Of a stretch of 64,000 bases of DNA, positions 760 to 62,166 are shown in pieces (position 1 is the first letter of the stretch; the number at the start of each line of letters is the position of its first letter). A program made the position numbers and the translations under genes. Source of the stretch: Yuukianura sp. NJ FZ-2021 (lineage: Eukaryota); assembly GCA_046563655.1 (NCBI GenBank), contig CM102290.1:7316001-7380000 (forward strand), written 5' to 3'. The notes under the pieces were generated by a model. It was not told the DNA's origin and made no database searches. It was given only the letters and a program-made list of their open reading frames with translations.

Positions 760-2078
760 TTAGGACTTCCATGCTCGGAACTTTCGGAGGGAAACTTTTT
801 TGAGACGAGCAACAGTGGATTTGAAGTCAGTATCTGTCGGCTCGTCCTCACTTAACGTTTCTCCTTCCGAATGGACATCGCGTTTTGTGGGTTTGGGTTT
901 TGTTGTAGCCTGGGATGTGGCATCATGGAGACTGTGCGCTTGGCGTTGATTTGCCAAATATTGGCGAGCCTTCTCTCGTTGTTGGGCCTTCGTATTTCCG
1001 TTTCGATGAATTTTTAGTTTGGTCAGTCGAGCTAATGTAGCTGCCCGAATGCCTCGACCTGGTTTGGACCTACTTTCAGAATTGTCAGCGGAGAGCCGAC
1101 TACTTCCGGCCGACGACGATCCGGAGGAAGCGTGAGGCTTTCGATCTCTCAAAACAAATCTAGCAATCAATAGTTTGAGAATATAATTTCATAATTATAA
1201 AAACCGACGGCAGAAGACTTACCGTCCTAAATTGTTCCACTTGAGTTGAACTTCGTAAACGTTTTCTTCGTCTTTGAGTACGCGATGAGTTGCCCGCTGT
1301 GAGGATTTTTTACGGAATGATCCAGCGCCCTCTGACGCTCCGCCTGATGTTGACGCTACAGGTTCTAGTTCTTCAACCAACACAAATTTGGTGGGATCCT
1401 CCAAGCGTCGGGCCTTCACGAGCGTCTGCGCAATGATGTCTTGGGAGGTACTTCTCACAGGCACCTTTGAAATATTTAATTTTATAACAACATTTTCCTG
1501 CTTTAATCTAAAATTAAATGAGACTCAAAATGCTGATGCCTCGACTAATGTTACCTTTAAAATGCAATATGGTATTTCCGGTGATACGTTGTGGACACAT
1601 ACAAGGAAGTTGTCATCTTCTCCCCATTGAAGTTCTTCACTATCCCGAGTGCCTTTATCTTTTGTAGGGTCAACGAAGCGATTTCCTCGTGATGAGATTG
1701 ACGACAACCAAGCTCGGCTGCTGGGATCGTTTCCGGTTCGCTTCAGGATAAATTTTCCATCTCCCTTCCAATGAGACTGCGACTGAAGCGGCTTTTCGTG
1801 GGGGTCAAGGACACGCTGTGTTGGTGGTAGTTCTTTCTCCTTCGCATCCCACCCACGAGCCACTTCTTCTATCAAAACGTACTCTCGCGCAGACTCTGCC
1901 GTTCTTCCACTCTTTTGTAGTGCATTCGCAATCACTTCTGAGGCTGTCGTGTCTTGTGTTACCTTTAGAATTGTGTATGGTTCGTCTGCAACAACTCCGT
2001 GCACGACAAGAAAAAACATCCGACGTTTGAGCGCAATCGTGGACTTGGCTGGAGAAATTCCCATTCCCGGTGGAAACC
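760..2078 (-). CDS. PLCE1: PLC-epsilon last three exons: tandem Ras-association domains RA1 and RA2, then a basic C-terminal tail
   Basis: Exons 1555-2078, 1223-1464, 760-1159. RA1: [29 protein letters not shown]...[10 protein letters not shown]...GKFILKR. RA2: [29 protein letters not shown]...[10 protein letters not shown]...GR|FVLRDR. Stop TAA at 760-762. Confidence 0.93.
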
Positions 2079-5000
2079 CTGAAAATGTAAGCGATTTTTT
2101 TAAATTGAAAAATCGTTATAATTTTTAATTTTAAGTAGTTTTGAAAAAGTAATTCAAATTCTGAAACTGCCGCTAACCCTCAATGACAGGGGTGCCTTCT
2201 CGGAACGAATCATCCTTGGAAAATTGTTTTTGTCCATTCTGCAGTTCTTCGCCTTCCTCCTCTAGTCTAGTACAAATGAAAAGCGTCGTTACTGGAAGTG
2301 GCTGATTGTGAATACTTCTGAGTCTCAAGTGTCGATAACCCTGCCGAAGACCTTTGAGGGGAATGACTCTTTGGGCTATGCAGTGACCTCCGCCGCTACC
2401 ACTGCTTCCACAGTCCAAGACGCTGAATCGAATAAAAGTTAGCTCTCTGAATTGGATCGTGAATGAGAGAACTTCGTTCCAGATTGGGTTGAGAGCATTC
2501 CTCGGAATGATCCTTGTGCGTTGCTTGGAACAGTCAATAGGAATACCGTTAATTTCCACTTCTACTTGAGGGCTAGCTTGATAATTTGTAGGTGAAAGAA
2601 ATTGTCCAGATACGATGTTGATATGAAGATGAACAGTATGGAGTCCGTCGAATTCCTTTTCAAGTGGGTTGAAACGCCGGTACATGACATGGCTTCGATC
2701 CCACATGACGCTTGGCTTTAGAACATATCCACATCGTCCATTCTGTTCAAACATTGCCGCGTTGATATGAAGGGCCGTGTCCTCAGTTTGATAATTGAGA
2801 GCCACAAGCTGGATTCCAAAAGACCAGAAAACAAGGGGATTGAAGTTGGATGAGTCAATTCGCATCCCTGCGGGATATGCTCGAATAAGCTGTGTTTCCG
2901 TATGGGCGAGTACTTGGAGAGGTTGCTTGCGAGAAAGTTTCTTGGCTGCATTTTCGTTGAGGGAGCAGCATTGATAGACTGGGTGGTTACTGATGACACG
3001 GCGTTGTTGATGATGTTCTCCACCAGAGTGGATACTGGAGGCAGTGGGGGTAACAGGGAGGCTGGAGGGTGGATTCGAAGTAGGAATTATACTTTTCTTT
3101 TGCATTATTTTATTCCGGACTGAACTACTTGGGCTCAGTGTAGTTAAGCCCCGAAATTTAATTGCTTGCAAGTATATGATGAGGTCAGACAGCTCCCGAG
3201 CAATTTGACTGCTCTGTTTTTTGGTCTTGGGAACTGATTCTTCCAATTCGACAACCCACTCTCCATGCTCGGATTGACTTGGATTTGTTAGTACTGGTGG
3301 GACAACAGTTGCCATCCGTCGAGATTGAGATGCTCCTTTTACTGATGACTCTTGGCTTGTCAACGAATCGGTTCTAGGTGTCGTCGGCAAGGCCTGCTCC
3401 GACGCTTGTCTCGATACAACCAGCCTCTCTAAAAAATAACAAAAATTCAAGTTAAGACTTAACTAATTCTTTTTTAAACTTGGAGTAAAATTACACGAAG
3501 TGAACTCCCCTTACCGTCTGGAATTTCATCTTCATAATCGGATTCAACATCATCATCCGAGTATTCGTCGTTGATTGAGCCACCACTTACGTTGCTCACA
3601 ATGCTATTTGTTCTAGCTGACTGAGGCCGACTTCCAGACCGATTTCGGGTGGCGGGATTGACTGGTGCTACAGTAGAGGTCGCAGACGGATGGATCACAG
3701 GATTTGGAATAATCTCAGCAAGTATTTTTTTGTTTTTGATTAAGATTCTATTTTTGAGTTGAGCTGGAGATGGGAGGCAAGGGTCATCAGTAAAATCTAC
3801 ATCAAATAGGAATCTTGTGACAAGCTTCTCCCCAAAAACTGTTTGGAAAGTCCAGGCCATTCTAGCTTGCTGTTGCAGAGAACAATGGTTTTCAATAGAG
3901 AGGATGACTGGGTAAGACGAGGCCAGAAATGCGCTCTTATTTATCGCATCAACGACCTGGCGGAAAGGAATTTTTGTGGTGAACGTATGCCCATGATAAA
4001 TAACCGGATCCCCGTCATCGCCGTCCCAGCAGTCAAGCTCAACGCAACGACAGCCAGTCAGCAGGACCTAAATTGTAAAGACCAATTTTTATATGCTAAC
4101 TATAGATCGATGTTTGATTTTCCGTTTTGGTTTTTGAAGTGATATTAAATTTTACTTGACTATAGAGCTCGACCGATGACTCTCCTTTGAGCTGATGACC
4201 TGTCAAATACGTATTGTGTGAGGCTGCAATAAAGTAGTGAGCGAGCGGATGGTCCAGTTCGGATTCCTGCGGAACGATGCGCTCGCTGACAAATGCTAGA
4301 TTGGACGCCGACATCATGTAACGAGCAAATCCTTCAAACGAGAAGCTGTGCTGCGCTTTGAGTACTTCGTCCGGTTCAAATTTCTATATTCAAAAAAAAA
4401 TCTCTAAAAGTTTCTAGCTTCGCTTTAACGAAATTTTACAGTACCTCAATTATAGCAATAATTTCAGACTCATATTTCCGTTCCCCTTGTGTCATTTTCA
4501 GAAATGAACCAAATGCGGGAAGAGTTAGAACGCGACCGCGTGACGTTTCTACTCCAGCACCATTTTGAACAATGCTTGCAGAAGCAATTGCATCATAGAT
4601 GAACTTGCTCTCTGGTTTAGTCCCAATTCCATAACCCATAGTCTTCCCATGCTTTGGCGTCGTACCTAAATTATAGATTATTTCAGAAATCAACTTAGCA
4701 TGATAAATGCTGCCAATCAATTACTATTAATCCATATAAAGACTCATATCAATCCGACTTGCCTGAAGCAGACGAAGAGTGACTTCTGTCAGGGGACCCG
4801 AGTTGAGGTGACTCCGTGCAATCGGATTTTTGTGGTGATGCAATGGAATCAAATAAGTCACGCAGGTCTTTTCTTGATCGTAAACTAAATTAAGCAACAA
4901 ATTGATTTAATAGTTGTCAATCCTATTAATGAAAAGTTTGACCCATATTAAGCTTACCTGAAAGCTTGGAAAAGCGATACGAAGTTGGGAAATGAAAGTC

Positions 5001-8000
5001 TAGTTTCATGGGTAAGGACCGATACTCGAGCTTGTGGAGATGGACATGCTTCGGAACCACCGGGTCCTGGAAGCATTGAAATTGCGCTTTTGATTCGAGT
5101 AAGCCCTTGCTGTTGATGAGGTGGAGTCGGAGGTGTGGAGCCTTCTGCTCCATCAGTTCTTGTGCGCATGGCTGGACTTGGAGGTCTCTCGCTTATGGCA
5201 TGATCGATAGGCTGCTTTGCAAACGAGTCCTAAATTATTCAAATTTAATTAAAATCGATTTACTTTAATTTATAGTTCATGTTTTGTTACAAAACTAACC
5301 TTAATCATATGAATGTTGGCCAACGATCTCTTCTTTCTGAACTTTGCAGAAGCCGTGCGTCGAAACGGTGGTGTATCGGGCAGACTCCCTTGAGGAGCCG
5401 AGGAAGTCCAACGACGCCCGCCAAAAACCTATACAAAAATTACATTAGTTTTATACCAACAATTTAGACACGTTACAGAAATGGAAATGTTTTTGTTATT
5501 TACTCGGATAGAGTCTGCCATCGTCGGAGCAATACAGCGGCCATCTTCGAAATAGAGTTGCAAGTATTGCTCCTTCAGCCAAAAGAGGCGTCTGTCGGGC
5601 CTTCCGATGACTCGTCTTAACGCCTTAACGACAGCTCTGAGTCCTGCTCCACAATTGTTGAGATGATTTAAACAACCTTCTGAAAATTAAGCACTAGAAA
5701 TTAAGTTATACTTGCCAGTGAGCCAAATGGAGGCGACCCGCGGAGGAAAGACAAATACTGTACTGCGGTTATCACTGAGAACCATTCCGTAGACTAGAGA
5801 AACACAAGTATCCATTGGAGCCCATGACTCAATTCCATATCTGTAAATCAAACAAAGAACCTCAAAGATGGTGGAACATAATCCACGCTTCAACTACAAT
5901 GGGAAACGTTCATTTACCGCTTCATTGCACCCGAAATGTCTACTTCCCTGCTTCCGCCTTCAACCTCCTTCACCCCATTGAGGTCAATATAGCCCTCTTC
6001 AATTCCAATTCCCGCAATGTCTGGAGCTCCGCCAAAACCCGTTGGTCCACTGCCACTTGTTCCAACGGAACTTGTCCCGCTCCCACTTCCGTACTTGATG
6101 ACAAGCCCCGGTAGCACTGGAATCAGTTCCGGTTCGACGCTGAGCAGGAAATCGGGTTGTGTATGGGAAAAGCGAAGAGAGCTCCAAACCGGCTTGCTCC
6201 AAGTTATGGTCCCACATGACCGCTCCAGCTTAACCCACACGAACGCCGCCCGTCCGTCACTGTCTATGTGAATGGCAGTACTTCCATGGTGCAGAACTTG
6301 CAAAATGTGGAGGTCAATAGAATTTTTGGAGTTGTCCAGTGGGATAAAGGACACATTGTGGTCATGACTGAGGGCTTGGACTGGTTGATAGAGATTAGTT
6401 GAACTCAAGACTTCGTCAACCAAGTCCGTTCCACCTCCGAAAAGTTCATCAGATGAATCCGGTTGCTCAGTTTCTCCGAATCCTGCTCTTTCGATGCTGG
6501 AGGTATGAATACTGAAAAAAAATTGGAAAAGATCTGCTCAAGAATTATATCGATATAACTACGACTAGTCAATGGAATATTCTATTCCAAGGAAGCGAAT
6601 GTTTGAGAAATCAAAACGTAACAAATCAATCTGTTATAAATAAAGTATTGACTGCTGAAAACTACATTTTCAATAATTTCAAAAGGCAATGAGAACCATA
6701 TTAAAACCTGTGTATTTTTACACACAAAAAGCTATTGAATATTTTTAGTCTAACCTTTTGAGTGTTGTTACCAATAAAGTACTAAAATTAACGCGAATCA
6801 CGCGATTACTCTCGGCTCTTCTCACTTTCTGTATAAACTTCATTTTAAGAAACTTGTTACTCCGAAAACTTAAAACGAAAAGCGAAATGATGGAACAAGA
6901 AATGTTCTTCCAAGTCACAAATCAAATTAAGCCTAGAAGTCAAGAAGCAAATAGTTTCTTTGCAGAACTATAAAAGGTTTTACTGCGTCCAAGAAAGAAC
7001 ATTTTGCAAAGGTTTAGTAGCATGGCATGTTGTGATTACACCATGTGCCATTAATTTTTGCTCATCATTATTTCATTTGCATTACTATGTTACTTTTAAA
7101 GTCGGACAGTTTGAGTCAAAGTCTTGTATTTTAGCATAAATGTCTGGATCCAATTTTATATCCAATCCTTACCTGAGTCTATCAGCGTGGAGAAAGGCAG
7201 CTTTTTGCTGTCGTTTCATGTGATGTTGATGCACCAGAGAAATTTTCTCGAGTACTGCCTGAACCTTGCGTAGTTTATTCATGTTCAGAAGTCCGCCTGG
7301 ACCAACTTTCGTAAAAAATTCATCGTCCGCCTCCAGCGTCGAACTCAAAAGTGTCTGAAATCCAAAAAGAAAAAAGTTTAGGGTCATGACACGCTTTTAC
7401 ACCTCGCTTTTAATTAGTTAAATCCCAACAAAAACCTTCCCGGGACATTTACCTCAATATTCTGTTTAGAATTTTGCGTTGCAAGCAGTGTGCCGTAGAA
7501 AGTGTTTTTTTAAAGTCGATGTTTAAAGTTTGTTTTTTGATGTAAATAGCTTTCTTTTATTGCTGTTACTTTCCTTGCTTTAAAAGCAGAAATCGTGCTT
7601 TAAAGCTTTACCTGCTACATAATATATCATGATATGTATATTTAGGGTAAAAACCGTGAATCTGTTTTTCCTTTTTAACTTTCTTTTTTCATTGGAAAGT
7701 ACAACCCACGCAAAGAGAAAGAAACTTGAGCCCCCTCAAAGTTAGCTATATACTTATACAAAGGTAGATAGTTACCACAGGATTTGTTCCCAGGAATTTG
7801 TGAGCTTTCCTCTAAAAGTTTTGAAACTAAATTATGAATATACTAGTTGGTATACTGGAATATTATGTTGAGCAGAATATTGAAAAAGGAAATTTGAGAG
7901 GAAAAGTTGGTTGATTAATTCTGATTTCTGTTAGAAATTAATAGAATTTTGGCTTGGGTTCTTTGATTTTGAGAGGTTTTTGAAATACTTTATACTGTCA

Positions 8001-11000
8001 CACTGGTCTTTCAATCCGAATCGTGGAAAGAGGAAAGTGACAAGCATGAAATTGAGTACAAGTAGAGCATTGGTTTCAATCAACTTAACATAATCCGACG
8101 CTGATTCAAAAGGACGACTCAGCCCCTTTGATTTCTCGTCCTCTTGCCTCATTAACTTTTGAAGCTGACACCAAAACCTCAGTCATTCCACTTTCTACCC
8201 AAAGAAAGTGGAGACAACGTCACTTCAAACAGATTAACTCCTCTCTGCCTTATGCCTAGCTGAACTACTACACTCAAGTCCCTTGGAATCAATTGAAGTA
8301 ATTGAACTTACAAATTACTGATGAGTGTGGATAACTTACTTGGAGCAGCGACGCTTCACTTCCTGGAGTGAGGACAACGAGCGAGGCCGTATTTAGCGTA
8401 CTTCTCAATTCCTTCAAGTATGCACCAAAGAAAGGTACGGCCGGACACGTAGAAATTCGGAGCGTACGTTCGAGTGCTGCTTCATAGTCTGGAGCTGACC
8501 ACTGGATGTCTTCGCCCCCCTTTGTCTCCAGCCCCCCAATTCCAATTTTTTCTCCAAGAAGTGCCTTGGTAAGAAGGTCCAACGTGGGTACTACGTCCTC
8601 CTTCTCGTGCAGCAGTAACCAGAATGGCTTCAGTTTGGACGATCTGTTTAGAATTAAATACGGACTTCAACCCTCACACTTCTTTCTTCTCCAACAAGTC
8701 AAACTGAAAACTTTCCCTAGGATCTCTAGACACTTTGAACAACACACAACCTGTCAGTTCCATTTGCAGTCTGGCACTTACAAGCCAAGCAGAAAATATT
8801 GTTTTAGTTCTGGGCCGAATTCGAGACATATATGAGACCTCAGACTGTTGACCTAACGAAGAACTTGCAGGGCAATACTTCTTTTTCTATCTAAGCGCTC
8901 TAGGCTCTACTAACTTCAAACAAAAAACAGATTTTGAGGGAAGGAAACCAAACGAAAAGAAAAATGAAATTCCTTGGCCTGAAAGATAGTAATGAATAAA
9001 TAATTTGCAGTCGATGTCTTGGAGGCAAGTCGACGGAATGACATACCACGTAAGTGTTTGCTCATCTTTTCTTTTCCGGGCGAAGATGAATTCTGGCAGA
9101 AAGACGCTTGATTTTTCGCTGGAACGACGACCACGCTGCATTTGTTCAGGAACAGCTGGGGTTCAGAGGAACAAAGTAGAGGCAAGTAGTTTCCGTCGGC
9201 CTACAACTTGGCTTTAACGGCTGGAGGCCGAAAGAAACCCCTGCCACTACTCCTCTGCGTTACTTTCTCCGCCTATCATCTTCTTCTTTTCTTCAGTTTT
9301 CATTGTGTCGACTTGCATCTAATTTTACATTTTTCACTTACAGCCGTTTTACTTAGCGCTTCACATTTCAAATTACTCCTCCCTTTTTAACACCTTTGCG
9401 CAAAAAAAAATAAAATACAACTTATAAAAAACCAGGCCTCAGAAAATTACTGCGTAAAGCCATTTGTAACTGCCATTTGTTTACAATTTCCAACAATTTG
9501 AAGATTAAGTTATGACTACATGACATGTCAGACATCTAGATATGTCGTTAAAAATGAACTCATAAATCGATAAATTTCTCTACGAATGTGAATTGGGGAA
9601 GCATTTTAATGCTTTTAGTGATCACTTAACCTTATTTGACCTACAAAAGCAATCTAATACGTTTTCCGCCAAGTATAGCCCTTGTTAATCATTTCCAATT
9701 CAGTTTTTTTGTACAAATCGATTGAGGTTTGGGAAAAAGTAAAAATTAAAACTTACTTGAGCCCAGCAATTACTTCCACGGCCGTTCCAAAGGCCCCGAG
9801 ATTCCAAGCTGTCCGGGCTACTCGTAGAAGACAAGACAGCATTGCCTTTCTCTCCTCATGACTTGGTGGAGAGACTAGAAGATGAGTGATCCACGAGCTG
9901 ATCTGTGAAGAATATAGAAAGTGAACACTATTATAATCAAGCCCATGAAATTTAAAATTTTTTTCAAATAGTTTCAACTCTTAGTTTTGGGAAAGTTAAC
10001 TAAGCCAACAAAGTTACAAATTCTGTAATGAAAAATGGCATAAGGGAACGCGGGAAGTTTTACCTCATTGAATCGATCAATTAGGGCACTGACTCCCAAC
10101 ATTGGCTGAAGCAACTCTCCCGCCGGTGGCTCTGAGCCACCAATATCCATTGTGACATGGCGTAAGTACTCGAGCGGAGCGACCTGGAACAGACAGCAGC
10201 ATCACGATAAAGCCGAAATATGAAAATTCGGAATCTGTCGACCACTCCATCACTTTCCCCTACTTCTTTTTCTTATTTGGGGAAAGTGGCGTTATACCCT
10301 TTACTAGAGTAGTTATGGTGAAATCGGTTTTGAAATCCAAAGGAAAACAACATTTCGAAAAAATGTAGGTTCCTCTGGAATGTGTGAAAAATAAAATGTC
10401 AATAATTTAATTTAGCACCTAAAATTACCTGTGAGAAGAGTTGACTCTCGGTTTCTGCTAGAGCCAGAGCCACTTCTTCAGGGAAAAACAAGACTTTCTC
10501 GAGCTGTTCCAATTCTGGACTCACCGTTGCCTTGATGTTCCACCGTTTCTTGGACGCATCTGTCATCGCACCAGAACAAACACATTAGTTATCACTTCCT
10601 ACTTTGCCACCACAACAGAACGTTGTGGAACAAGGTTTCGTCAGGTCATAATGGATCGATCAAAAAACGACGTTCTTTACGACGTCAATTTCATAAAAAT
10701 GAACGATGAGCATCAAGAGCTTCGCAGAATAAAAGACAGCAACTATTTTGGGATAACTTTTTTTGGAATGACGTTTTTTAAACTTTGAGTGCTACAAAAC
10801 TAAATTTTGGCGTCGCGATTTGAAAACTTCAAGGAGATCCTTAAGTAATTAAAGTTTTTTTTAGTTAATAAAGTTATGCCTTACCGGTGTCAGCGGGACC
10901 AGACGGTGGGGGTGGTGGGGCAAAGTCGTCTAGAAAGTGCGTATCCATTTCTCGAAGAAGAGCCCATAAGGCTCTTCCGGCTTCACGCAGTCCACCCACT

Positions 11001-14000
11001 GTTCCCAAATGTCCACAAGGTACACCACAAGAAGACGCACTACCCACCGGTGGGACTAAAGTGTCAATTTACGAAAACACTACTGTTTACCAAGGCCTTT
11101 GAAACTCGGAGGTTAGTTTAAAAAGTTAAGATAGACGGCCAAAGGAAACGCCAGAATTTGCTACCTTGTTGCGCAAATTCCATTCGCCATGTTATGACTT
11201 CTCCCTCAGACCACTTTGTTCCGCGAAATTCTAAAATGAGTCTATCATGGTTTCGTCCGCCACCAGCCCTCCACTAGGTCACATCAAAGAAACAAACAGA
11301 ATTGAGCACAGGCGTGGATCAAACCTACCTCACAACACAAGATCAAGTTCTACTTTCTTCCTTTCCCCGGACTCCAAAAATAACACTTCCTCATTATAAC
11401 AAACTACTTCGAAAATTTTAGAGTACAAAAAGAAATTTTATAGGCTTTCTAGAGTAAACAGCCACAAAATTGGAGTCAAGTGAAACCCTTCACTTTCTCT
11501 CAAAATTTTTCCATAATCCGACTAGATTTGAAAGATTTTATATTGAACTTGAAATAACAAAATTTTGGAATAATTTAGTTTAAAAAAATACTGCCTAAGT
11601 GAGCGTAGTGTTCAACGTTGAAATTCTCTTGTTTTTGTGCCACAAAAATTTTCATTGACTTTCCACAAATGTTTTTGTAAGCCGCATAACTATGCATAAC
11701 CTCCCTTGGATTTTCTCTCACTATGCCTCTCTCATCACTCGGCTTTTGTTTTGAAAATCCCAAAAATTTGGTTGTGCCCATAATGCCTACCAGTGAAACT
11801 GAATGAGACTCAAGAGGGCTATGATAAAAGAATCCTTGAAATTATTTACCACACGAAAACAGAATCAGAGAAAGGAGAAAAGAAAGAGACTATATAAGAC
11901 TAAAGAGATAGAATAAATGGGCCACAAACCTGTATGAGATCAGACGTCAGTTGAGATCTTGTAAGGACTTTGGTTCTACAGTCGAGGAGAATAATTTTCT
12001 CTTGTCCAATTCCCAGAAGGCGCGTCGCCTGTATGAAGGCAACCAAAATTAAGTTAAATTCTGTGACTTGAAAAGAAGAAGCAGAAAGTGGGGGGCGCTT
12101 GGTCAAGAGAGTCATGGCCTAAACTTTGTCGTAATGGATCCCAGTGACCCATCCTGTGCTGGGCTAACTATGGCAACCAGATGATGAGGCCGATGGCTGA
12201 TCAAGTGACAGACTGACTTGTGGAGACGGGACTTCAAGTCTTTTTATAGACACTTTCTACTTTACGAGAAAGTGACTGAACTCCCCTCTGCCCTCCGTTC
12301 CTTCAGCGCACCGATTCTGGACGACTCACACAAATCCAGGTAGAATATGCTTTTAAACAACCTCCGACCTCAGCATCTCCCCATACTTTCTCCCTCTAAC
12401 CTAACGCAACTTTTCCCCTCTATTTATTTAATTTTAGGGGAAAGGAGTGATACATAGCTCCTACTTTGGATTTCCCTCTCACATTCTCTTCACAAAAATA
12501 TTGGTAAGGACTCTGGGCGGAGTTACTAAACATCCAGTTTGGTTGGCTTTCTCGGATTGATTGACAAGGTTCATCTATAGGGACACGCACTTCAAAACTA
12601 TAATACATAACTTAAGCTTAGGTTAGGTTACGTATGGAAATAACGCAATTCTGTTTCTTCTGGCATGACGCAAGAGACAATAAGCATACTTTTCCTTAGT
12701 TTCATGTAGTTGGATTGTGGATTTCTAATCATGGCATGGCATGTAGCAATAGAGAAAGGAGAAAGGAAAAGGCACCAAATGGGAGCGGAATGGCAATTCC
12801 CTTTCATATTTCTCTAAATCTAATTCCACAACAAAATTCTCCAGAGTCATTTCCTTCGCGTTTCCTGGAACAAAATCCTTGCTATGTTTCTATCCGGCTT
12901 CTTCTTTTGATTTACAAAAATGACAAGTCCGAAATCGTTGAAAATATCATTTGTCAATGTACTTTTACTCAGAAAAAAAAAAGGAACAAAGAGGACTTTT
13001 TAGAAGTACTTTCGTAGTGGAAATCTTACAATTTTCAACCTGAATTGAAAATTGCAACGGGAGTTTGATTTTGACATTGTAAGTGAATTTTTTCTTTCAG
13101 CTTTGGGTTAGAGAAATTATTTTTAAAGGCCAACATTGTTGGATTCCGGGGCTAAAATTGATTGCCTAAATCCTAAAGACCAAAATCCAAACCCAAAGCC
13201 AAACCTAGGGAAATCAAGTTTCGTTCTGGGATTTCTGAGGGAAGGAATAAAGTATAATATTGTGGTTATGGCCTAAATCTAAGTCATTTCCCATCTAAGA
13301 CAAACACTGATTCAGCGAAGGCTGCTTACTTTAACCTAGTAGGAGAATCATTTCGTTGAGTTACAAAATTCACTTTCTTTTTCTGAAAATGTCTCCGTGT
13401 TTCCAAAAAACAATTCTAGAAAAATTTCTATGCAACTGCAAAATTTTATTTCATTCTAACCTAACCAACATTACATATAAAAGGGATTTAATTGAAAATA
13501 ACGTGTAACTCCAATGTATCTGAGAAAATAGCGCTATTTTCTTGTTGCTCTTTTTTCTATTCTATTTTATTACAAAAAGCGAAGCAAAGCTTATTTTGGA
13601 CGTCAGCCACGAGCCTTATGAGATGCTATAAGTATTAGGGGGACAGAATCGATTTCTTATTGTTGTAACGTCATATTTTCTTTTTGTCCTTAATTGTGAT
13701 TGCCTGTTTTTTCTCCAAATCCAAGCTCTACGTGACCGTCTTGCTCAAGACAACTTAGACAGACTTAGAGCTTAAGGACAAGCGCAAAAAATGAAAGTGG
13801 GTGAAAGAAAGGCAGTAGTGGTAGTAATAAGTAAGACAGAAAGTGATTGAACTTACCCTCTTCTTGGTTTTACCGCGAAGAAGTTCCTTGACCACCACAA
13901 GACGAGAACCGTAAGCTGGAAGTCTTCGGCAAGTTTGAACGTACAGTTTTTGAAGCTGAGTAGCCGATTCGTAAACGGACGTATGGAAAAGCTTTCTCTT

Positions 14001-53000: not shown

Positions 53001-56000
53001 GCTTCTCAAAGCATTTCTTAACACGGGCGACGTCGTTTGTCCTGAGGGCTCTTTCCAGAATGGCCACATCGTAACTGAGATCACTCAGAGAAGACGCAAT
53101 GCTGCTGCAACAACAAAAGAATTTCATCATTAGTTTCTGACGCATAAGATTTGTAAAGTTATAGTTATGTTTTTAAAAAGTTTGTTCAAATTTTAATGTT
53201 CTGTGAATTTTGTGAGATTTTTTAGCTTGTATTTTCTTATTTGTGACTAGTTGAAATTTATGCGATCCCCCAACTATGAAAAGTAACTCCAAATATTTTT
53301 TTTTCCATTTCCACCAGTGTGACATTGCCTCACTTTCCATGCTCCGTTGCCTCTGAATTGTGTGTATGGTGCACGTCGTGTGTGAAAGAGTGAAAGTTGA
53401 CTTTCACTTTACCAACAAAAGCCTTGCTCATTGTGTCTGATTCACCCCCAGCCCATTTCCCTTCTCTCGCTGTCGAACTACGGAGAAAAGAGCTTCTGTA
53501 AAATGGTGAGAATTATGTAAAATGTTGTTGACAAGTGTGACAGTTCCAGGAGCTTCTGAGAATAATAATGATAATGGCTGACATCATTGTTTGCTTATCT
53601 GCCCCAACGCCTACCACTCACTTGCTAACACCTCTTCTTCTTCAAATCAAAATGGACCTATTTGGGTGGAATATTCAAAAAAGACGCCCAAATATTGAAG
53701 TGGCACGTTGCTACTAGTACCAAGGAATGAGCAGCTTATTTAGAAGTCTCCTCAGTCAGCACTCCGACATCCAGAAAATCCTGAAGAAAATTGTATTTTA
53801 TTAGAGCGGCATGGTCTCAGGAATGGAAAATGGGGCTTAGAAATAAGGCCTAAGGTTGAATGACTTCAAGGGACAAAAAGGAGTCTCTGGAGCGGATGCC
53901 TTGAGATGGAGTACTTAAGGACCCTCCTTTCCCGTTTCAAGTCTCCTGGATTTCAAGACATCGCCGTCTCGTTACATTTCAGATTCTATCTCACACTTAC
54001 AATGACGTGCCTGGTAGTTAGGCGTTGGATCTTCCTGTGTACACCGACTGTCTACCAGTTCAAAAGAATGAGGAGCAAAGGACCAGACAAAATGTGAAAG
54101 TCAGAGTGGAAAGTGTTTTGGACTGCAAAGAGTAAGTGTCTTTGTTCTACTTTTTTTTCAAAGGAGGATTGTAGAATTTTAAAACTATTTCTAAAATTTT
54201 ATCATCTTTTATCCTTTTACAACGCACTGACCCATTCAGGGAAAAAAATTCCGAAATCCTGAAAGGACTTCCTCAAACCCCATCATAAATCTCATTCAAA
54301 ATCTTTCTCAAGTAAAAAAAAACGAAGTTTATCAAACAAATAAAATCAGCTTTCTCGACAATAGTTTTCCTCAAAAATTTTCTGCAACAGACACGGCCTT
54401 AAAAGCAAGAAAAACAAACAAACGACTAATTTAACCTTACGGAACTCTCTAAGCTATCAAAGCTATCAACCGATTTTGAAATAAATATGAGCAACGTTTT
54501 TGACAAAAAAAAACTCTGCTAATATTTGTGTGAAAATTAAGTCGAAATGCCCTACTTATTACGAATGACAAAAAAGATAAAAATTATCTGGAACAGATTT
54601 GATTTTGTTTTTAAGGCTCTTTGAAACGACTCCATTTGAGCTTTATAAAGTGAGGAAACGAAATGGTCGCTTGGTATCCGGGAATGTAGAAAGTAAACGA
54701 GGTTGTAATGACAATTCTCGCCACCATTCTTCATTTGAATTGCTCTAAACCGCACAGCATGGACCCCCATTTGAGAAAGACCTATTTCCCGCCCCTGACG
54801 ACGCACCAAAGAAAAGAGAAAGAGAAGGCGGATTAAATTTCTCTCGTTTCATATTTTGCTTCTCCTAAAAAAAAGACATTTTGGAAGAGAAAATCCGAGC
54901 CGGGTAGACCAGACCAACGTTCGGCCTATGAAAAAGTTAAATGCATAGCCCATTTCTCTAACCAACATCTCATCTAAATTCCACTATTCTCGGACTTATT
55001 TTTGCAAAGAACTTTCACCATTGTGTTTCTCTCATCTGGAAGTTCAGTAGTTGTCTCTCAATTCCATCTAAAAGACCTCTCAAATGCTAATTGGAAAGAA
55101 TGGGCTACACAAGTGGAAAATTGAGAAAAGAAACGAATTGAAATTGAGCGTTTTCCAAGAAACTACGGAAACTCCTGCTGGAGACCAATTTTCGACTTAC
55201 TATAGTAATTTGGGTAGTTATGGACGTTCTTCATGGTTCCCGGGCTTTCTCTTGGGGGAAAGTCATTGAAACGTATGGTTCCTTTGCGTGTGACTATCCA
55301 ACTCTTCCTGGTTAGCCACGTCGTAATTCTGAATCCACTCACTACTCAGACAAATCAGCCGCAAATCTATTCGAATCATTCCTAACTCCTGATTTCCTTC
55401 ATCTCATTAATAAAATCAACAACCTCACACAATTTTATGATTATCTGGCAAGATATAAACAGCTCCATACTTTGCACGTTTTTGGTTTCCGGAATTCCTT
55501 AATGACTACGGTTCCGAATAATGCAATATTTTTTTTAAGTTCTACAGTTTTCCAATAATTTCTTAAAAGGTTCACTGTTACGCCAAAAATACTCAAAAAT
55601 TAACAGACCGTTAATTCACCAAATTATTAAGAAACTGGCTAGTTTTTTTTTCCAGTTAATGAGAGTTGAAAAATAGAGCACAAACTAAAGCGGTGTTTTT
55701 AGATACATTCCAGAAATTTTTGAATGGTAGTTTTACAATGGTAAATTGAGTTTAAAGAGAAATCATAGCCAGAGTCCTGACTCCTGCTTTCAATTTCCCA
55801 TTATACTTAAAAATGTAAAAAGGCTAAGCAGGCCATAATGGCTTTTTCAATTTGTAAATTGGTTTTTTTCCTTTGTCAGCAAAAGAGAAATTTTTTAAGG
55901 AAACCTTTTCGAATTACTTTTTAAGAGAAAGTCAGACTTCAGTTCGCCACAAAAGCATGAAAAACCTGAAATTCTTTTTCCTTAAAAATATCGCTCTGGA

Positions 56001-62000: not shown

Positions 62001-62166
62001 TTTTCTTGATTTAAAGTTGAACTTTGCTAGTGCTTACCTTTGCGTTCCGAGTGAGGACGACGTGTCCTAAATCATTTTGAACTCCGAAGGGGTAGACCAC
62101 TTCACTCGTACTCCGCACATTCGGGTCTTTCAAATTTGTTGCGCGGGGTGGAACTCCTGGCTTCAT
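760..62166 (-). CDS. PLCE1: Giant phospholipase C epsilon-like protein (ANK - ARM-like - REM - FERM - CDC25 RasGEF - PH - EF - PI-PLC X/Y - C2 - RA - RA), multi-exon, ~4,100 aa
   Basis: Manually spliced model, all junctions phase-compatible, listed 5'->3': 62038-62166, 56449-56491, 56113-56338, 52984-53104, 51806-51909, 50371-51005, 49830-50282 (or -50219), 47399-47745, 46645-46879, 46206-46414, 44397-44475, 44094-44267, 43958-43995, 43710-43891, 43059-43237, 37461-37566, 37196-37343, 35521-35773, 35266-35453, 35062-35194, 34688-34989, 33555-33989, 32726-33349, 31923-32060, 30610-30672, 28285-28515, 27573-27851, 13857-14006, 11930-12028, 11165-11273, 10885-11055, 10429-10559, 10064-10183, 9757-9902, 8340-8643, 7173-7354, 5918-6511, 5716-5840, 5504-5643, 5300-5428, 4958-5229, 4763-4884, 4445-4665, 4156-4383, 3515-4067, 2178-3428, 1555-2078, 1223-1464, 760-1159. 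CDC25 + PLC X/Y + C2 + two RA domains is diagnostic of PLC-epsilon. The 5'-most exons are the least certain. Confidence 0.8.
2178..3428 (-). CDS. PLCE1: PLC-epsilon exon: X-Y linker, catalytic Y box and C2 domain
   Basis: [43 protein letters not shown] (PLC Y box), then IVSGQFL...NALNPIWNE...[10 protein letters not shown] (PLC C2). GT-AG boundaries at 3428 and 2178. Confidence 0.97.
3515..4383 (-). CDS. PLCE1: PLC-epsilon exons: catalytic X box
   Basis: Exons 4156-4383 and 3515-4067: [64 protein letters not shown]...[12 protein letters not shown]...[17 protein letters not shown]. Both catalytic His and the Ca-binding N/E/D/E residues are present. Confidence 0.97.
4445..6511 (-). CDS. PLCE1: PLC-epsilon exons: PH domain and EF-hand region
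   Basis: Exons 5918-6511, 5716-5840, 5504-5643, 5300-5428, 4958-5229, 4763-4884, 4445-4665. LQVLHHGST...[14 protein letters not shown]...EEGYIDL...WLTGLRAVV is PLC-epsilon-type [27 protein letters not shown] and [11 protein letters not shown] are EF-hand-like. Includes two GC-AG introns. Confidence 0.88.
7173..10559 (-). CDS. PLCE1: PLC-epsilon exons: CDC25-homology RasGEF domain
   Basis: Exons 10429-10559, 10064-10183, 9757-9902, 8340-8643, 7173-7354: [26 protein letters not shown]...[17 protein letters not shown]...[12 protein letters not shown]...[14 protein letters not shown]...[13 protein letters not shown]...GLLNMNKLR. Confidence 0.9.
10885..14006 (-). CDS. PLCE1: Exons encoding the end of the FERM F2 lobe and the FERM F3 (PH/PTB-like) lobe
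   Basis: Exons 13857-14006, 11930-12028, 11165-11273, 10885-11055: [24 protein letters not shown]...|[16 protein letters not shown]...DLIQ|WRAGG...DRLILEF. This matches the FERM 'Y...C..LP.YG' and 'LLGI...I.LLD' signatures. Confidence 0.82.
15418..16350 (-). pseudogene. Intronic 311-codon frame interrupted only by TGA codons (pseudogene or TGA-recoded insert)
   Basis: ORF-track pieces 16147-16350, 15814-16143 and 15418-15615 are all in one frame. Internal stops at 16147, 15814, 15802, 15790 and 15622 are all TGA, with no TAA/TAG until 15418. Confidence 0.4.
17553..17627. mobile_element. 75-bp MITE with CA...TG ends and an 8-bp TSD (P-element/hAT-type)
   Basis: Perfect 22-bp TIR CAAGGTAACTAAACATAAATAC / GTATTTATGTTTAGTTACCTTG, flanked by the direct repeat ATAAAACT (17545-17552, 17628-17635). 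Confidence 0.88.
24226..24960 (-). pseudogene. Decayed coding-like segment, possibly LRR-type
   Basis: The minus frame reads ...[15 protein letters not shown]...[24 protein letters not shown]...[18 protein letters not shown], then shifts frame into MEVLTLDHD...[13 protein letters not shown]. The 157-aa plus ORF is its shadow frame. Confidence 0.3.
26344..26707. mobile_element. Foldback/MITE with long imperfect TIRs built from AATTGTGTCAAC subrepeats
   Basis: The ~80-bp left arm (ggttccaagccattgcatcaaatgaattgtgtcaacaacaattgtgtcaactgaaatg...) aligns to the reverse complement of the right arm. Flanks gaagaata/gaagaatc look like an 8-bp TSD with one mismatch. Confidence 0.75.
27573..30672 (-). 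CDS. PLCE1: Exons encoding the FERM central (F2) lobe with a low-complexity insertion
   Basis: Exons 30610-30672, 28285-28515, 27573-27851: [35 protein letters not shown] ... IEDLVPPYY...LIK. All junctions are phase 0 and join 14006 across the 13.6-kb intron. Confidence 0.8.
28884..29117. mobile_element. Tc1/mariner-type MITE
   Basis: Perfect 29-bp TIR CAGGGTGTGGCAGCCAAAAGTAGACACCT, TA target duplication at 28882-28883 and 29118-29119, and an internal perfect hairpin at 28961-28991. Confidence 0.92.
30021..30291. mobile_element. Degenerate foldback/MITE with AAAAGGAGCCGATGCC-type subrepeats
   Basis: Left taacagtcaaatcaaaaggagccgatgcca is inverted against right tggtgtcggctctttttgatttggctgtta. 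The right end reads GGGTTCC on the minus strand, like the element at 26344. The left terminus is eroded. Confidence 0.6.
31923..34989 (-). CDS. PLCE1: Exons encoding a split REM (RasGEF-N)-like domain with a Ser/Pro-rich insertion
   Basis: Exons 34688-34989 ([28 protein letters not shown]), 33555-33989, 32726-33349 (S/P-rich, ending HRAVLMFVE) and 31923-32060 (DWITTC...IRELKDFV). The two halves match the REM consensus 'D..F..TF...Y.....P..LL.LL..R' and 'RVL..L..WI'. Confidence 0.75.
35062..44475 (-). CDS. PLCE1: Exons encoding an ARM/HEAT-like alpha-helical region
   Basis: Exons 44397-44475, 44094-44267, 43958-43995, 43710-43891, 43059-43237, 37461-37566, 37196-37343, 35521-35773, 35266-35453, 35062-35194. 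Leu-rich amphipathic helices, e.g. [50 protein letters not shown], which is ARM-like. Confidence 0.72.
41338..41512. repeat. Possible Helitron/Helentron-associated (DINE-1-like) short repeat remnant
   Basis: Inverted ccggaagt...acttccgg, then aaattcggtccaccgattccagagttg and a cagatcgacacac stretch, a layout resembling arthropod DINE-1/HINE-type elements. Recognised by eye only. Confidence 0.35.
45686..45751 (-). CDS. Candidate 66-nt symmetric cassette exon
   Basis: ttctgatccatgtccag|CTT...AGC|gttagc encodes [22 protein letters not shown], phase 0-0 inside a phase-0 intron. Confidence 0.35.
46206..53104 (-). CDS. PLCE1: Exons encoding ankyrin repeats interrupted by long insertions
   Basis: Exons 52984-53104, 51806-51909, 50371-51005 ([27 protein letters not shown]), 49830-50282/50219, 47399-47745 ([26 protein letters not shown]), 46645-46879 ([12 protein letters not shown]...[21 protein letters not shown]), 46206-46414. 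Confidence 0.8.
56113..56491 (-). CDS. PLCE1: N-terminal Pro-rich coding exons
   Basis: Exons 56449-56491 ([15 protein letters not shown]) and 56113-56338 ([24 protein letters not shown]...SSRHN). Donors are gtaag; the phase-2 exit matches the acceptor at 53104. Confidence 0.65.
57640..57709 (-). CDS. Candidate alternative first coding exon (isoform B)
   Basis: Donor CTG|gtgagt at 57639. The ATG at 57657 gives MFFNYL in phase 0 to exon 56491. An overlapping upstream ORF at 57647-57709 encodes [20 protein letters not shown]. Confidence 0.4.

What the first reader, a model, noticed from the sequence alone, without database searches (positions are those of the whole stretch)
760..62166. ~4,100-aa PLC-epsilon carrying ankyrin, ARM-like, REM and FERM modules upstream of the catalytic core
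Seen: about 49 exons splice in one open frame from an N-terminal Pro-rich segment through ankyrin repeats, helical repeats, REM and FERM lobes into CDC25-PH-EF-X-Y-C2-RA-RA. Established: vertebrate PLC-epsilon (~2,300 aa) and C. elegans PLC-1 are described as CDC25-PH-EF-X/Y-C2-RA proteins without ANK or FERM domains, and Drosophila lacks PLC-epsilon. Inference: this is a scaffold-fused PLC-epsilon that could couple membrane or adhesion-receptor binding (FERM, ANK) to Rap/Ras GEF activity and PIP2 hydrolysis in one chain. It may be a widespread but uncharacterised invertebrate architecture; I cannot confirm novelty without a search.
Basis: partly seen in the sequence, partly recalled or inferred. 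Interest (0 to 1): 0.8.

Follow-up and report, generated by a model that had tools for sequence, protein, structure and literature searches.

The report
Giant springtail PLC-epsilon with extra domains
This is a real 50-exon gene for a roughly 4,060-residue phospholipase C-epsilon whose front half carries ankyrin, armadillo-like, REM and FERM-like domains, a long form that many invertebrates share and that none of my literature searches found described.

Summary
Observation confirmed. My spliced alignment joins 50 minus-strand exons, 62166 to 763 with the stop at 760-762, into one 12,192-nt frame of 4,064 aa.

The 3' half is a textbook PLC-epsilon (CDC25, X, Y, C2, two RA; Pfam). The 5' half is colinear with a 4,035-aa springtail protein (79% identity).

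The extra domains were tested mostly on relatives:
- ANK: Pfam and a PDB profile.
- FERM central domain: Pfam. F2-F3 fold resembles talin.
- REM: split, but the six best of 48,161 folds are GEF REM domains.
- Armadillo-like solenoid: Z about 14, a borderline value.
- No F1 lobe was seen.

It is not a local fusion. Long forms of 3,000-4,400 aa occur in chelicerates, crustaceans, hemipterans, mayflies, nematodes and an acanthocephalan. Models that split the gene cut the FERM domain in two.

No RNA evidence exists for this species. Nine literature searches (nine listings, passages of four papers) found no description. Function is inferred. A mir-2796 hairpin lies in a CDC25 intron.

The parts
760..62166 (-). 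Whole coding span of the long-form PLC-epsilon gene: 50 exons, 4,064 aa; ATG at 62164-62166, stop at 760-762
   Evidence: Spliced alignment; colinear tblastn of P0124, P0121 and P0126; 79% identity to P0124
56113..62166 (-). Exons 1-3 (aa 1-132): conserved start MKPG..., then a Pro-rich low-complexity segment
   Evidence: M1 and G4 invariant in 7 long forms
46645..53101 (-). Exons 4-9 (aa 133-742): ankyrin-repeat module. Repeats lie in exons 4 and 6 and in exons 8-9, interrupted by a Ser/Arg-rich insert of about 340 aa
   Evidence: Window exon 6: Pfam Ank E 6.4e-4, 20.4 bits against a 21.1 cut-off; exon 9: E 0.044. Relatives are above the cut-off. Family profile against PDB ankyrins E 3e-46
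35266..44267 (-). Exons 13-20 (aa 839-1261): helical, armadillo-like solenoid. The block at aa 1041-1200 (exons 17-19) is as conserved as the CDC25 domain
   Evidence: Conservation profile. phmmer of the matching P0124 stretch finds only 185 clusters among 1.84 billion. In the spider relative's model this region matches beta-catenin at Z 14.7 and plakophilin and APC-ARM at 13.8
34688..35194 (-). Exons 21-22 (aa 1262-1404): N-terminal half of a split REM domain, including the motif [30 protein letters not shown]
   Evidence: Sequence. Fold of the matching stretch of P0287: the six best hits are REM domains of RasGRP2, RasGRP1, SOS1, Epac2 (two entries) and SOS, Z 11.4-8.9
32786..34687 (-). End of exon 22 to exon 24 (about aa 1350-1737): disordered Ser/Pro-rich insert inside the REM. 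It carries two conserved short motifs, [13 protein letters not shown] (aa 1586) and [11 protein letters not shown] (aa 1619; it fits the RSxSxP pattern, which I recall as the 14-3-3 mode-1 pattern)
   Evidence: With strict patterns, the first motif is found in 15 and the second in 16 of 26 further stored relatives, all of them arthropods. pLDDT is below 50 in the models
30610..32785 (-). End of exon 24 to exon 26 (about aa 1738-1824): C-terminal half of the REM domain
   Evidence: Aligns to P0287 aa 983-1050. Fold. One weak Pfam RasGEF_N hit at the equivalent place in the scorpion protein (E 0.034)
13857..28515 (-). Exons 27-29 (aa 1825-2044): FERM lobe F2 (FERM_M) with a disordered insert (exon 28). 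The lobe is split by the 13.5-kb intron 14007-27572
   Evidence: Window exon 27 matches FERM_M profile positions 21-46 (E 0.075) and exon 29 positions 88-111 (E 0.13). P0124 scores 25.0 bits, P0121 31.6 and P0287 36.9 against a cut-off of 23.8
10885..13900 (-). End of exon 29 to exon 32 (about aa 2031-2170): FERM lobe F3, a PH/PTB-like beta sandwich
   Evidence: Spider model residues 650-741: talin F3 Z 12.6, rmsd 1.6 A, 24% identity; merlin and 4.1R FERM Z 13. Talin F2-F3 Foldseek E 4e-6
7173..10559 (-). Exons 33-37 (aa 2171-2464): CDC25-homology (RasGEF) domain
   Evidence: Pfam RasGEF on ORF 9756-9980, E 3.6e-05; P0124 E 1.7e-14. Fold Z 19 to the CDC25 domains of RasGRP2, RalGPS1a and RasGRF1
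9174..9252 (-). mir-2796 precursor hairpin, same strand as the gene, in the intron between exon 35 (9757-9902) and exon 36 (8340-8643)
   Evidence: Rfam RF03381, 75.1 bits against a gathering score of 72, E 1.2e-15. Fold energy -50.5 kcal/mol, z -6.3
4156..6511 (-). Exons 38-45 (aa 2465-3075): PH domain and EF hands of the PLC core
   Evidence: EF-hand_like E 9.5e-4 on ORF 4099-4383. The family profile aligns to the solved PLC-epsilon PH-to-C-terminus chains 9ax5 and 9b13
3726..4252 (-). PI-PLC X box (exons 45-46), with the motifs [19 protein letters not shown] and SIENHC
   Evidence: Pfam E 5.8e-11 and 6.1e-44. Invariant columns in 7 long forms
2710..2994 (-). PI-PLC Y box (exon 47)
   Evidence: Pfam E 1.3e-37
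2332..2631 (-). C2 domain (exon 47)
   Evidence: Pfam E 7.2e-13
1735..1986 (-). RA1 domain (exon 48)
   Evidence: Pfam RA E 5.4e-15
1234..1467 (-). RA2 domain (exon 49; it begins at the end of exon 48)
   Evidence: Pfam RA E 1.1e-05

Best explanation
The window holds one gene. It is the springtail orthologue of phospholipase C-epsilon in a long form of about 4,060 residues.

Domain order: Pro-rich start, ankyrin repeats, armadillo-like helical solenoid, REM (split by a disordered insert), FERM lobes F2-F3, CDC25, PH, EF hands, X, Y, C2, RA1, RA2.

Shown here:
- the continuous frame and its canonical splice sites;
- the domain identities, in the window for the core and mostly through relatives for the front half;
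- the same order of blocks in arthropods, nematodes and an acanthocephalan. This makes it an old protostome form, not a local fusion.

Inferred mechanism:
- The core works like known PLC-epsilon. The X/Y barrel hydrolyses phosphoinositides, Ras or Rap binds the RA domains, and the CDC25 domain activates Rap.
- The REM gives this CDC25 domain the usual partner that stabilises its helical hairpin in SOS, RasGRP and Epac.
- The talin-like F2-F3 pair between REM and CDC25 holds the enzyme at PIP2-rich membrane or on receptor tails.
- The ANK and ARM-like parts dock further partners.
- A conserved RSxSxP site in the REM insert is a likely phospho-switch.

Shorter isoforms from internal starts, or an early end after F3, probably exist beside the long one.
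For: One frame. 50 exons, 4,064 aa, no stop, 49 GT/GC-AG introns.

Colinearity. P0124 (4,035 aa, springtail), P0121 (mayfly) and P0126 (Daphnia) all map in order across 62166 to 763.

Core domains in the window.

Long forms elsewhere.
- All 9 proteins found in the 3,753-5,000-aa range carry the PLC X and Y boxes. 8 of the 9 have ANK and 7 of the 9 have FERM_M in the precomputed lists.
- 13 of the 26 hits carry both ANK and PLC-X.
- Of 16 proteins of 1,000 aa or more that hit the ARM/REM block, 7 carry PLC X and Y.
- Their names cover aphid relatives, spiders, Trichinella, Auanema, Mesorhabditis, Steinernema and Pomphorhynchus.

The FERM_M domain straddles the only plausible break point.
- Window exons 27 and 29 match the two ends of the profile.
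- Front-half-only models end at profile position 46-50 (P0132, P0302, P0304, P0146).
- Short PLC models begin at model aa 1825 or 1941-1995.

An ENA protein (P0231) runs from the ARM block to the Y box, and a Logan protein (P0163) runs from ARM to CDC25.

Folds. Model of the spider relative, pLDDT 73.6. CDC25 Z 19; ARM-like Z about 14; F2-F3 Z 12-13; talin Foldseek E 4e-6. REM: the top six of 48,161 chains.

Motifs in the REM insert.
Against: No transcript evidence for this species. The one RNA run offered held 8% of the sampled words of the 3' exons. When laid on 8516-28515 it gave only two short, poorly matching pieces inside the long intron.

In the window alone the upstream domains are weak. 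Ank scores 20.4 bits, under the cut-off, and the two FERM_M halves score 13.8 and 13.1 bits. The domain calls therefore lean on relatives that are 30-80% identical.

Pfam RasGEF_N hit only 1 of the 12 relatives scanned at a loose threshold, and below its cut-off. Foldseek found nothing for the REM model. In the large model the REM did not align onto SOS together with the CDC25 domain.

The ARM-like Z of about 14 lies in the range that helical repeats can reach without kinship (note).

Several species have separate front-half and PLC-half models (Apolygus, Schistocerca). Steinernema has a 1,741-aa isoform identical to the first 1,735 aa of its 3,089-aa form. So part of the output may be shorter proteins.

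I could not check how the ENA and Logan proteins were called, so calling them 'uninterrupted frames' is an assumption.
Confidence: 0.82

Rival explanations
1. Two neighbouring genes, an ANK/ARM/REM gene and an ordinary PLC-epsilon, have been strung together by reading across a 13.5-kb gap. The long protein is never made.
For: Some annotations give separate front-half and PLC-half proteins. Apolygus has P0131 (1,540 aa) and P0014 (1,382 aa), which share no overlap. Schistocerca has P0132, P0302 and P0303. There is no RNA support in this species.
Against: The break would cut the FERM_M domain in two. It would also part the REM from its CDC25 domain. Long single models recur in several arthropod orders, several nematodes and an acanthocephalan, with the same block order. 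P0231 and P0163 bridge the break. Reading frame and splice phase are kept across the long intron.
Confidence: 0.05
2. The locus is one gene, but its main products are shorter isoforms. One would be a PLC-epsilon of about 2,240 aa starting at the Met that opens exon 27 (28515), or at a first exon hidden in the 13.5-kb intron. Another could be a front-half isoform ending after F3. The 4,064-aa protein would be rare.
For: Exon 27 begins with ATG, and an in-frame stop lies directly upstream: the stop-to-stop ORF 28258-28515 begins at that codon. P0015, P0022 and P0300 start at exactly this position, and many RefSeq 'isoform' models start at aa 1941-1995. The Steinernema 1,741-aa isoform equals the first 1,735 aa of the 3,089-aa form.
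Against: A start at exon 29 would leave half an F2 lobe. The front half is under clear constraint: 75-90% identity to Allacma in the structured exons, and the ARM block is as conserved as the CDC25 domain between arthropods and nematodes. That constraint implies the front half is translated. This reading does not exclude the long form.
Confidence: 0.12
3. The front half is a recent, springtail-specific addition to PLC-epsilon by exon shuffling.
For: Most PLC-epsilon proteins listed are 1,600-2,140 aa. That search could not see longer proteins.
Against: The same front half is present in chelicerates, crustaceans, hemipterans, mayflies, nematodes and an acanthocephalan.
Confidence: 0.01

Closest known systems
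Vertebrate PLC-epsilon (PLCE1; solved fragments 6PMP, 9AX5, 9B13)
   Same: The order CDC25-PH-EF-X-Y-C2-RA1-RA2 is the same. The family profile aligns to the solved PH-to-C-terminus chain over about 1,400 residues with E 0. The catalytic motifs are kept.
   Different: A 2026 review (PMC13022664, passages read) describes the vertebrate N-terminus as about 500 residues before the CDC25 domain. It reports no homology to other proteins and no predicted structure there, and the words ankyrin and FERM do not occur in it. Here about 2,170 residues precede the CDC25 domain, and they hold ANK, an ARM-like solenoid, REM and F2-F3. None of the 150 listed proteins that hit the ARM/REM block is 2,000-2,500 aa long. 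I had no vertebrate sequence, so remnants were not tested.
C. elegans PLC-1 (PLC210)
   Same: It is the founding invertebrate PLC-epsilon, a Ras effector with CDC25, X/Y, C2 and RA domains (cited in PMC13022664).
   Different: I recall it as about 1,900 aa without ANK or FERM. That figure is from memory and comes from no call. Other nematodes have long forms: Auanema 3,482, Mesorhabditis 3,532, Trichinella 3,268, Steinernema 3,089, Aphelenchoides 3,920 and Heterodera 4,398 aa. The worm protein was not examined here.
Epac / RAPGEF family Rap exchange factors (REM, inserted domain, CDC25)
   Same: A REM separated from its CDC25 domain by another folded domain. The REM model matches the Epac2 REM (Z 8.9) and the CDC25 part matches the Epac2 CDC25 domain (Z 17-18).
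   Different: Here the inserted domain is a FERM F2-F3 pair rather than an RA domain, and the REM itself is split by a disordered loop of about 390 aa. The account of Epac's domain order is recalled.
Talin head F2-F3 and KRIT1 (ANK + FERM, binds Rap1)
   Same: The best Foldseek matches of the F2-F3 part are talin2 and talin1 F2-F3 (E 4e-6 to 5e-5, 19-24% identity). The KRIT1 FERM follows at 1.3e-4. KRIT1 also combines ankyrin repeats with a FERM domain.
   Different: No F1 lobe is seen, and F1 is part of the Rap1 site in KRIT1 (recalled). The ANK and FERM parts are about 1,100 residues apart here. No binding was tested.

Membership tests
PLC-epsilon | PI-PLC X and Y catalytic boxes with the conserved catalytic motifs | tested here: met
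   Pfam X E 6.1e-44 and 5.8e-11; Y E 1.3e-37 on window ORFs. SHNTYL, ELDCWDG, YHGHT, SIENHC and RIDSSNFNP are present. The matching columns are invariant in 7 long forms.
PLC-epsilon | CDC25-homology (RasGEF) domain N-terminal to the PH-EF-X-Y-C2 core | tested here: met
   Window ORF 9756-9980: RasGEF 24.1 bits against a cut-off of 23.1. P0124 E 1.7e-14. Fold Z 19 in the spider relative.
PLC-epsilon | Two C-terminal RA domains after the C2 domain | tested here: met
   RA E 5.4e-15 (1528-2115) and 1.1e-05 (1222-1524); C2 E 7.2e-13.
PLC-epsilon | Closest relatives are PLC-epsilon proteins rather than other PLC classes | tested here: met
   Among the 120 best hits of the Y-C2 exon, every name legible in the listing is PLC-epsilon, a generic phospholipase C name or a non-specific label (hypothetical, unnamed); no other PLC class appears. 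The best is Orchesella at 73% identity. In PDB, PLC-epsilon chains score far above the zeta, beta, gamma and delta classes.
Ankyrin repeat | Match to the 33-residue ANK profile, in tandem copies | tested here: met
   In the window alone the match is just under the cut-off: exon 6, 20.4 bits against 21.1; exon 9, E 0.044. Relatives are above the cut-off (P0121 Ank_2 49.7 bits, P0125, P0131 and others). The family profile against PDB ankyrins gives E 3e-46 with 9 stretches.
FERM domain | Central lobe F2 (FERM_M) | tested here: met
   P0124 25.0, P0121 31.6, P0125 30.5 and P0287 36.9 bits against a cut-off of 23.8. In the window the two halves fall in exons 27 and 29 and are each sub-threshold.
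FERM domain | C-terminal lobe F3 (PH/PTB-like sandwich) directly after F2 | tested here: met
   The spider model has strands at 650-720 and a helix at 723-740. Talin F3 Z 12.6, rmsd 1.6 A; merlin and 4.1R FERM across F2-F3 Z 13. Talin F2-F3 Foldseek E 4e-6. This was tested on a relative 39% identical to the window in this region.
FERM domain | N-terminal ubiquitin-like lobe F1 | tested here: not met
   The spider model shows only helices between the REM (466-515) and F2 (522-642), and no strands anywhere before residue 650. No FERM_N or RA-type Pfam hit falls in that region in the 12 relatives scanned at E up to 5. I therefore describe an F2-F3 module, not a complete FERM domain.
REM (RasGEF N-terminal) domain | Match to the RasGEF_N sequence profile | tested here: inconclusive
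   1 of 12 relatives gives a weak hit (P0289, E 0.034, 14.8 bits against a cut-off of 28.3). The others give none. No hit on window exons 22 or 25.
REM (RasGEF N-terminal) domain | REM helical fold | tested here: met
   Model of P0287 aa 756-1050 (pLDDT 66.8). Among 48,161 chains the six best are REM regions: RasGRP2 (Z 11.4, rmsd 2.7, 114 aligned), RasGRP1 (10.3), SOS1 (9.2), Epac2 (8.9, twice) and SOS (8.9). Rlf scores 7.9. Caveat: these Z values fall in the range where helical bundles can match by chance, and Foldseek gave nothing.
REM (RasGEF N-terminal) domain | REM packs against the CDC25 helical hairpin | tested here: inconclusive
   In the 1,025-residue model only about 200 residues (the CDC25 domain) superpose on the REM-CDC25 structures of SOS, RasGRP and Epac. 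I could not read the model's coordinates.
Armadillo repeat | Tandem three-helix repeats forming a superhelix, or a match to the Arm profile | tested here: inconclusive
   No Pfam Arm hit. Fold matches: beta-catenin Z 14.7 (rmsd 3.4, 209 aligned), CNOT9 14.4, APC-ARM 13.8, plakophilin 13.8. For helical repeats this level can be reached without kinship. The protein-atlas leads are mixed ARM/HEAT-type families at 0.86-0.89. 'ARM-like solenoid' is as far as the evidence goes.

The most novel reading that the evidence does not exclude
The long ANK-ARM-REM-F2F3 form is the ancestral PLC-epsilon of bilaterians, or at least of protostomes. The conserved but unexplained N-terminus of vertebrate PLC-epsilon, which a 2026 review calls homologous to nothing and of unknown structure, would then be the eroded remnant of this REM/FERM region. 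In the long form the enzyme would be a complete REM-CDC25 Rap exchange factor. A talin-like F2-F3 module would clamp it to PIP2 or NPxY receptor tails, so that adhesion-type receptors recruit a lipase and a Rap activator in one chain. An arthropod-wide RSxSxP site would act as a 14-3-3 switch.
Probability: 0.25. Interest if true: 0.7.

Novelty: new variant of a known kind. Interest (0 to 1): 0.45.

Why it matters
PLC-epsilon is studied almost only in mammals. There its first 500 or so residues are an acknowledged blank: conserved, needed for full activity, without homology or predicted structure (PMC13022664).

Many invertebrates keep a version in which that position holds recognisable domains, namely a REM, a talin-like F2-F3 pair and, further upstream, ARM-like and ankyrin repeats. 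This gives the field a concrete hypothesis for what the N-terminus once was. It also offers testable handles: does the REM raise Rap exchange, and does F2-F3 bind PIP2 or receptor tails?

The finding also corrects annotation. Many database entries split this gene in the middle of a FERM domain, or call the long form 'uncharacterized protein'. An older survey reads PLCE1 as eliminated in insects (PMC3141262).

For this window itself the result is a sound gene model of a conserved orthologue, not a new kind of system.

Tried and rejected
RNA evidence. The only run offered was a metatranscriptome holding 0.08 of the sampled words of 763-6511. Laid on 8516-28515 at 80% likeness, it gave two pieces of 37 and 69 nt inside the long intron, both under 90% alike. 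It gave no joints and nothing on any exon. It says nothing either way.

Own genome. None is held, so I could not look for a second copy of the front half.

Earlier findings of this scan. Three look-ups found nothing.

Nested genes and transposons. Pfam on 117 plus-strand ORFs of 62 aa or more gave 0 families. Minus-strand ORFs outside the exons gave only two sub-threshold chance hits, KH_DTX3L and DNA_repr_REX1B. No tRNA was found.

REM model. Foldseek gave no match at E <= 0.001; SOS and RasGRP2 appear only at E 6-7.

REM-CDC25 packing. It could not be shown from the large model.

Protein atlas.
- For the F2-F3 part it points to MyTH4-FERM families at 0.76-0.80.
- For the ARM part it points to mixed solenoid families at 0.86-0.89.
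- Both are leads only.

miR-2796 target site. The 3p seed has one 7-mer match in the CDS (exon 19, at 35576) against 0.79 expected, so it is not significant.

Calls that had to be repeated.
I used another stored protein instead.
- One Pfam call exceeded the size limit and was resent with 12 proteins.

Full report
WHAT IS THERE

The window is eukaryotic DNA of 32-44% G+C. One large gene on the minus strand fills it.

Pfam on 140 stop-to-stop minus-strand ORFs finds the whole PLC-epsilon core in the expected order towards low coordinates:
- RasGEF in 9756-9980
- EF-hand-like and X box in 3477-4383
- Y box and C2 in 2176-3462
- two RA domains in 1222-2115
Upstream it finds only one near-threshold ankyrin repeat, in 50354-51088.

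The best relatives of the Y-C2 exon are arthropod PLC-epsilon proteins. Closest is the springtail Orchesella at 73% identity.

GENE MODEL

A search restricted to very long proteins returned nine PLC-epsilon proteins of 3,780-4,398 aa. One of them is a 4,035-aa protein of the springtail Allacma fusca (P0124). It maps colinearly on the window in 37 tblastn pieces from 62166 to 763. A mayfly protein and a Daphnia protein map in the same order.

I wrote a protein-to-genome aligner with explicit GT/GC-AG introns in all three phases and ran it between 37 anchors. The result is 50 exons, 12,192 nt and 4,064 aa, with no stop. All acceptors are AG; 47 donors are GT and 2 are GC.

Exons in window coordinates, in gene order:
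- 1-10: 62038-62166, 56449-56491, 56113-56338, 52984-53101, 51806-51909, 50371-51005, 49830-50219, 47399-47745, 46645-46879, 46217-46414
- 11-20: 45721-45733, 44397-44473, 44094-44267, 43958-43995, 43710-43891, 43059-43237, 37461-37566, 37196-37343, 35521-35773, 35266-35453
- 21-30: 35071-35194, 34688-34992, 33555-33989, 32726-33349, 31923-32060, 30610-30672, 28285-28515, 27573-27851, 13857-14006, 11930-12028
- 31-40: 11165-11273, 10885-11055, 10429-10559, 10064-10183, 9757-9902, 8340-8643, 7173-7354, 5918-6511, 5716-5840, 5504-5643
- 41-50: 5300-5428, 4958-5229, 4763-4884, 4445-4665, 4156-4383, 3515-4067, 2178-3428, 1555-2078, 1223-1464, 763-1159

Identity to the Allacma protein is 79% over 3,974 aligned residues. 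The window is therefore from another springtail, not that species.

Four tiny exons depend on the guide alone, although their peptides match it. The end of exon 31 may be 36 nt too long.

THE FRONT HALF: DOMAINS

A joined protein could not be handed to the tools. I therefore tested window exons singly and used relatives that align block for block.

Ankyrin.
- Window exon 6 scores 20.4 bits (cut-off 21.1), and exon 9 has the GNTPLHLA start of a repeat.
- Relatives are well above the cut-off.
- A profile of seven long forms hits PDB ankyrins at E 3e-46 in up to nine stretches.

Conserved helical block.
- Model aa 1041-1200 (exons 17-19) is as conserved between arthropods and nematodes as the CDC25 domain.
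- phmmer with the matching Allacma stretch against 1.84 billion representatives finds only 185 clusters at E <= 1e-3.

Fold of a compact relative.
- I folded residues 371-1395 of the compact spider form, with 29 relatives as the alignment. Mean pLDDT is 73.6, with long confident stretches.
- In a search of 48,161 chains, the first 270-355 residues match beta-catenin (Z 14.7), CNOT9, APC-ARM and plakophilins. This supports an ARM-like solenoid, at a level that helical repeats can reach without kinship.
- Residues 528-752 match merlin, 4.1R and talin F2-F3 (Z 12.4-13.2). Talin F3 alone matches at rmsd 1.6 A and 24% identity.
- Residues 778-1017 match CDC25 domains at Z 16-19.
- Foldseek ranks talin F2-F3 at E 4e-6. 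Myosin-X, kindlin, KRIT1 and merlin FERM domains follow.

FERM_M by Pfam.
- It is above its cut-off in P0124, P0121, P0125, P0287, P0289, P0170 and others.
- In the window, its two ends fall in exon 27 (profile 21-46) and exon 29 (profile 88-111).
- No strand-rich lobe precedes F2 in the model. This is an F2-F3 module without F1.

REM.
- The stretch before F2 looked like a REM by eye: ...[23 protein letters not shown]..., then about 390 disordered residues, then ...[13 protein letters not shown]...[11 protein letters not shown].
- Pfam gives only one weak RasGEF_N hit among 12 relatives.
- Folded alone from the Trichonephila protein (aa 756-1050, pLDDT 66.8), the two halves form one bundle.
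- Its six best matches among 48,161 chains are the REM regions of RasGRP2 (Z 11.4), RasGRP1 (10.3), SOS1 (9.2), Epac2 (8.9 twice) and SOS (8.9). Rlf scores 7.9.
- Foldseek alone found nothing.
- The large model did not superpose REM and CDC25 together on SOS.
- I take the REM as supported by fold and its packing as open.

Motifs in the REM insert. Two short motifs are conserved across arthropods: I[LVA]AFQ+xLQNLP and RPRS[RC]S[VM]P[RK]VT. In the window they lie at aa 1586 and 1619. The second fits the RSxSxP pattern that I recall as the 14-3-3 mode-1 site. That reading is inference.

ONE GENE OR TWO

The only plausible break is the 13.5-kb intron 14007-27572, and it lies inside the F2 lobe.

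Front-half-only database models end there:
- Schistocerca, Parthenolecanium and Syphacia models end with FERM_M profile positions 16-50 only.
- On the window model they end at aa 1826-1860, 1994 or 2040.

Short PLC-epsilon models begin at model aa 1825, or at 1941-1995. Split models are thus halves of one domain.

Long single models exist in the following:
- mayflies, phylloxera and adelgids, planthoppers, psyllids, Rhodnius;
- a crayfish and Daphnia;
- a scorpion, four ticks and spiders;
- the nematodes Trichinella, Auanema, Mesorhabditis, Steinernema, Aphelenchoides, Heterodera and Globodera;
- the acanthocephalan Pomphorhynchus. That model carries a catalase at its end, surely a prediction artefact.

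Two unnamed proteins bridge the break: P0231 runs from ARM to the Y box, and P0163 from ARM to CDC25. I could not verify how they were called.

Shorter isoforms are likely as well:
- Exon 27 opens with ATG directly after an in-frame stop.
- Three relatives start at that position.
- Steinernema has a front-half isoform identical to the first 1,735 residues of its long form.
- The scorpion has two paralogues 62% identical, one modelled long and one short.

RNA evidence for this species could not be had.

HOW IT LIKELY WORKS

Shown: the lipase core is intact, with its catalytic motifs, a CDC25 domain and two RA domains.

Inferred from the known families:
- The protein hydrolyses phosphoinositides under Ras/Rap control and activates Rap through its CDC25 domain, as mammalian PLC-epsilon does (PMC13022664, passages).
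- The REM should stabilise the CDC25 hairpin as in SOS, RasGRP and Epac.
- The F2-F3 pair, nearest in shape to the talin head, should bind acidic lipid or short receptor-tail motifs and place the enzyme at its substrate.
- The ANK and ARM-like parts offer further docking surfaces.
- The long disordered inserts, with their conserved motifs, suggest phospho-regulation.
None of these inferred points was tested.

WHAT IS KNOWN

Nine literature searches were run.
- Combining PLC-epsilon or PLCE1 with ankyrin, FERM, REM, arthropod or Collembola found no paper whose title or abstract start describes this architecture. I saw listings only for most of these.
- The 2026 JBC review (passages) contains neither 'ankyrin' nor 'FERM'. 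It calls the N-terminus unexplained.
- A 2011 survey (passages) reads PLCE1 as eliminated in insects. It mentions neither domain.
- Papers outside the held library were not searched, and no supplements were read.
- The long proteins are in public databases, mostly as 'uncharacterized protein' or 'hypothetical protein'.

VERDICT

This is a sound, conserved gene. For this window it is a new member of a form that databases already hold. The form itself is an undescribed variant of PLC-epsilon, of moderate interest for the open question of the enzyme's N-terminus.

Noticed in passing
window 9174-9252, minus strand: A mir-2796 precursor hairpin lies in the intron between CDC25 exons 35 and 36, on the gene's own strand (Rfam 75.1 bits against 72; fold -50.5 kcal/mol, z -6.3). 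A bumblebee paper names PLC-epsilon as the host gene of ame-mir-2796 (PMC6835379, passage read), so the pairing of this miRNA with its host gene reaches back to springtails.
   Followed up: partly
window 9176-9244, against protein P0002: Residues 3-25 of the Orchesella cincta PLC-epsilon model match the translation of the mir-2796 hairpin at 100%. That model's first coding exon is probably the miRNA read as protein.
   Followed up: no
window 35576 (exon 19): A single 7-mer match (8-mer with position 1) to the miR-2796-3p seed lies in the codons for the conserved LLVYLGLH of the ARM block. With 0.79 expected by chance it is not significant, but a honeybee paper reports that the miRNA binds the phospholipase C coding region (PMC10217982, passage read).
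   Followed up: partly
window 26349-26702: An inverted repeat with 74-nt arms (86% complementary, 206 nt apart) encloses a 17/33-nt tandem repeat at 26428-26509, inside the 13.5-kb intron. It may be a small foldback or MITE-like element.
   Followed up: no
window 28516-28518 and 28513-28515: Exon 27 starts with ATG immediately after an in-frame stop. Three relatives' proteins (P0015, P0022, P0300) begin at this very position. This may mark the start of a shorter isoform that opens at FERM F2.
   Followed up: partly
stored proteins P0016-P0082 (Hymenoptera), not in the window: About 30 hymenopteran PLC-epsilon models begin at residue 1 aligned to window model aa 2296, inside the CDC25 domain, and most lack a RasGEF Pfam hit. 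Either the models are truncated or the front part was lost in that order.
   Followed up: no
stored proteins P0063 and P0289 (Centruroides): The scorpion has two PLC-epsilon paralogues 62% identical. One is modelled at 2,090 aa and the other at 3,477 aa with the full front half.
   Followed up: no
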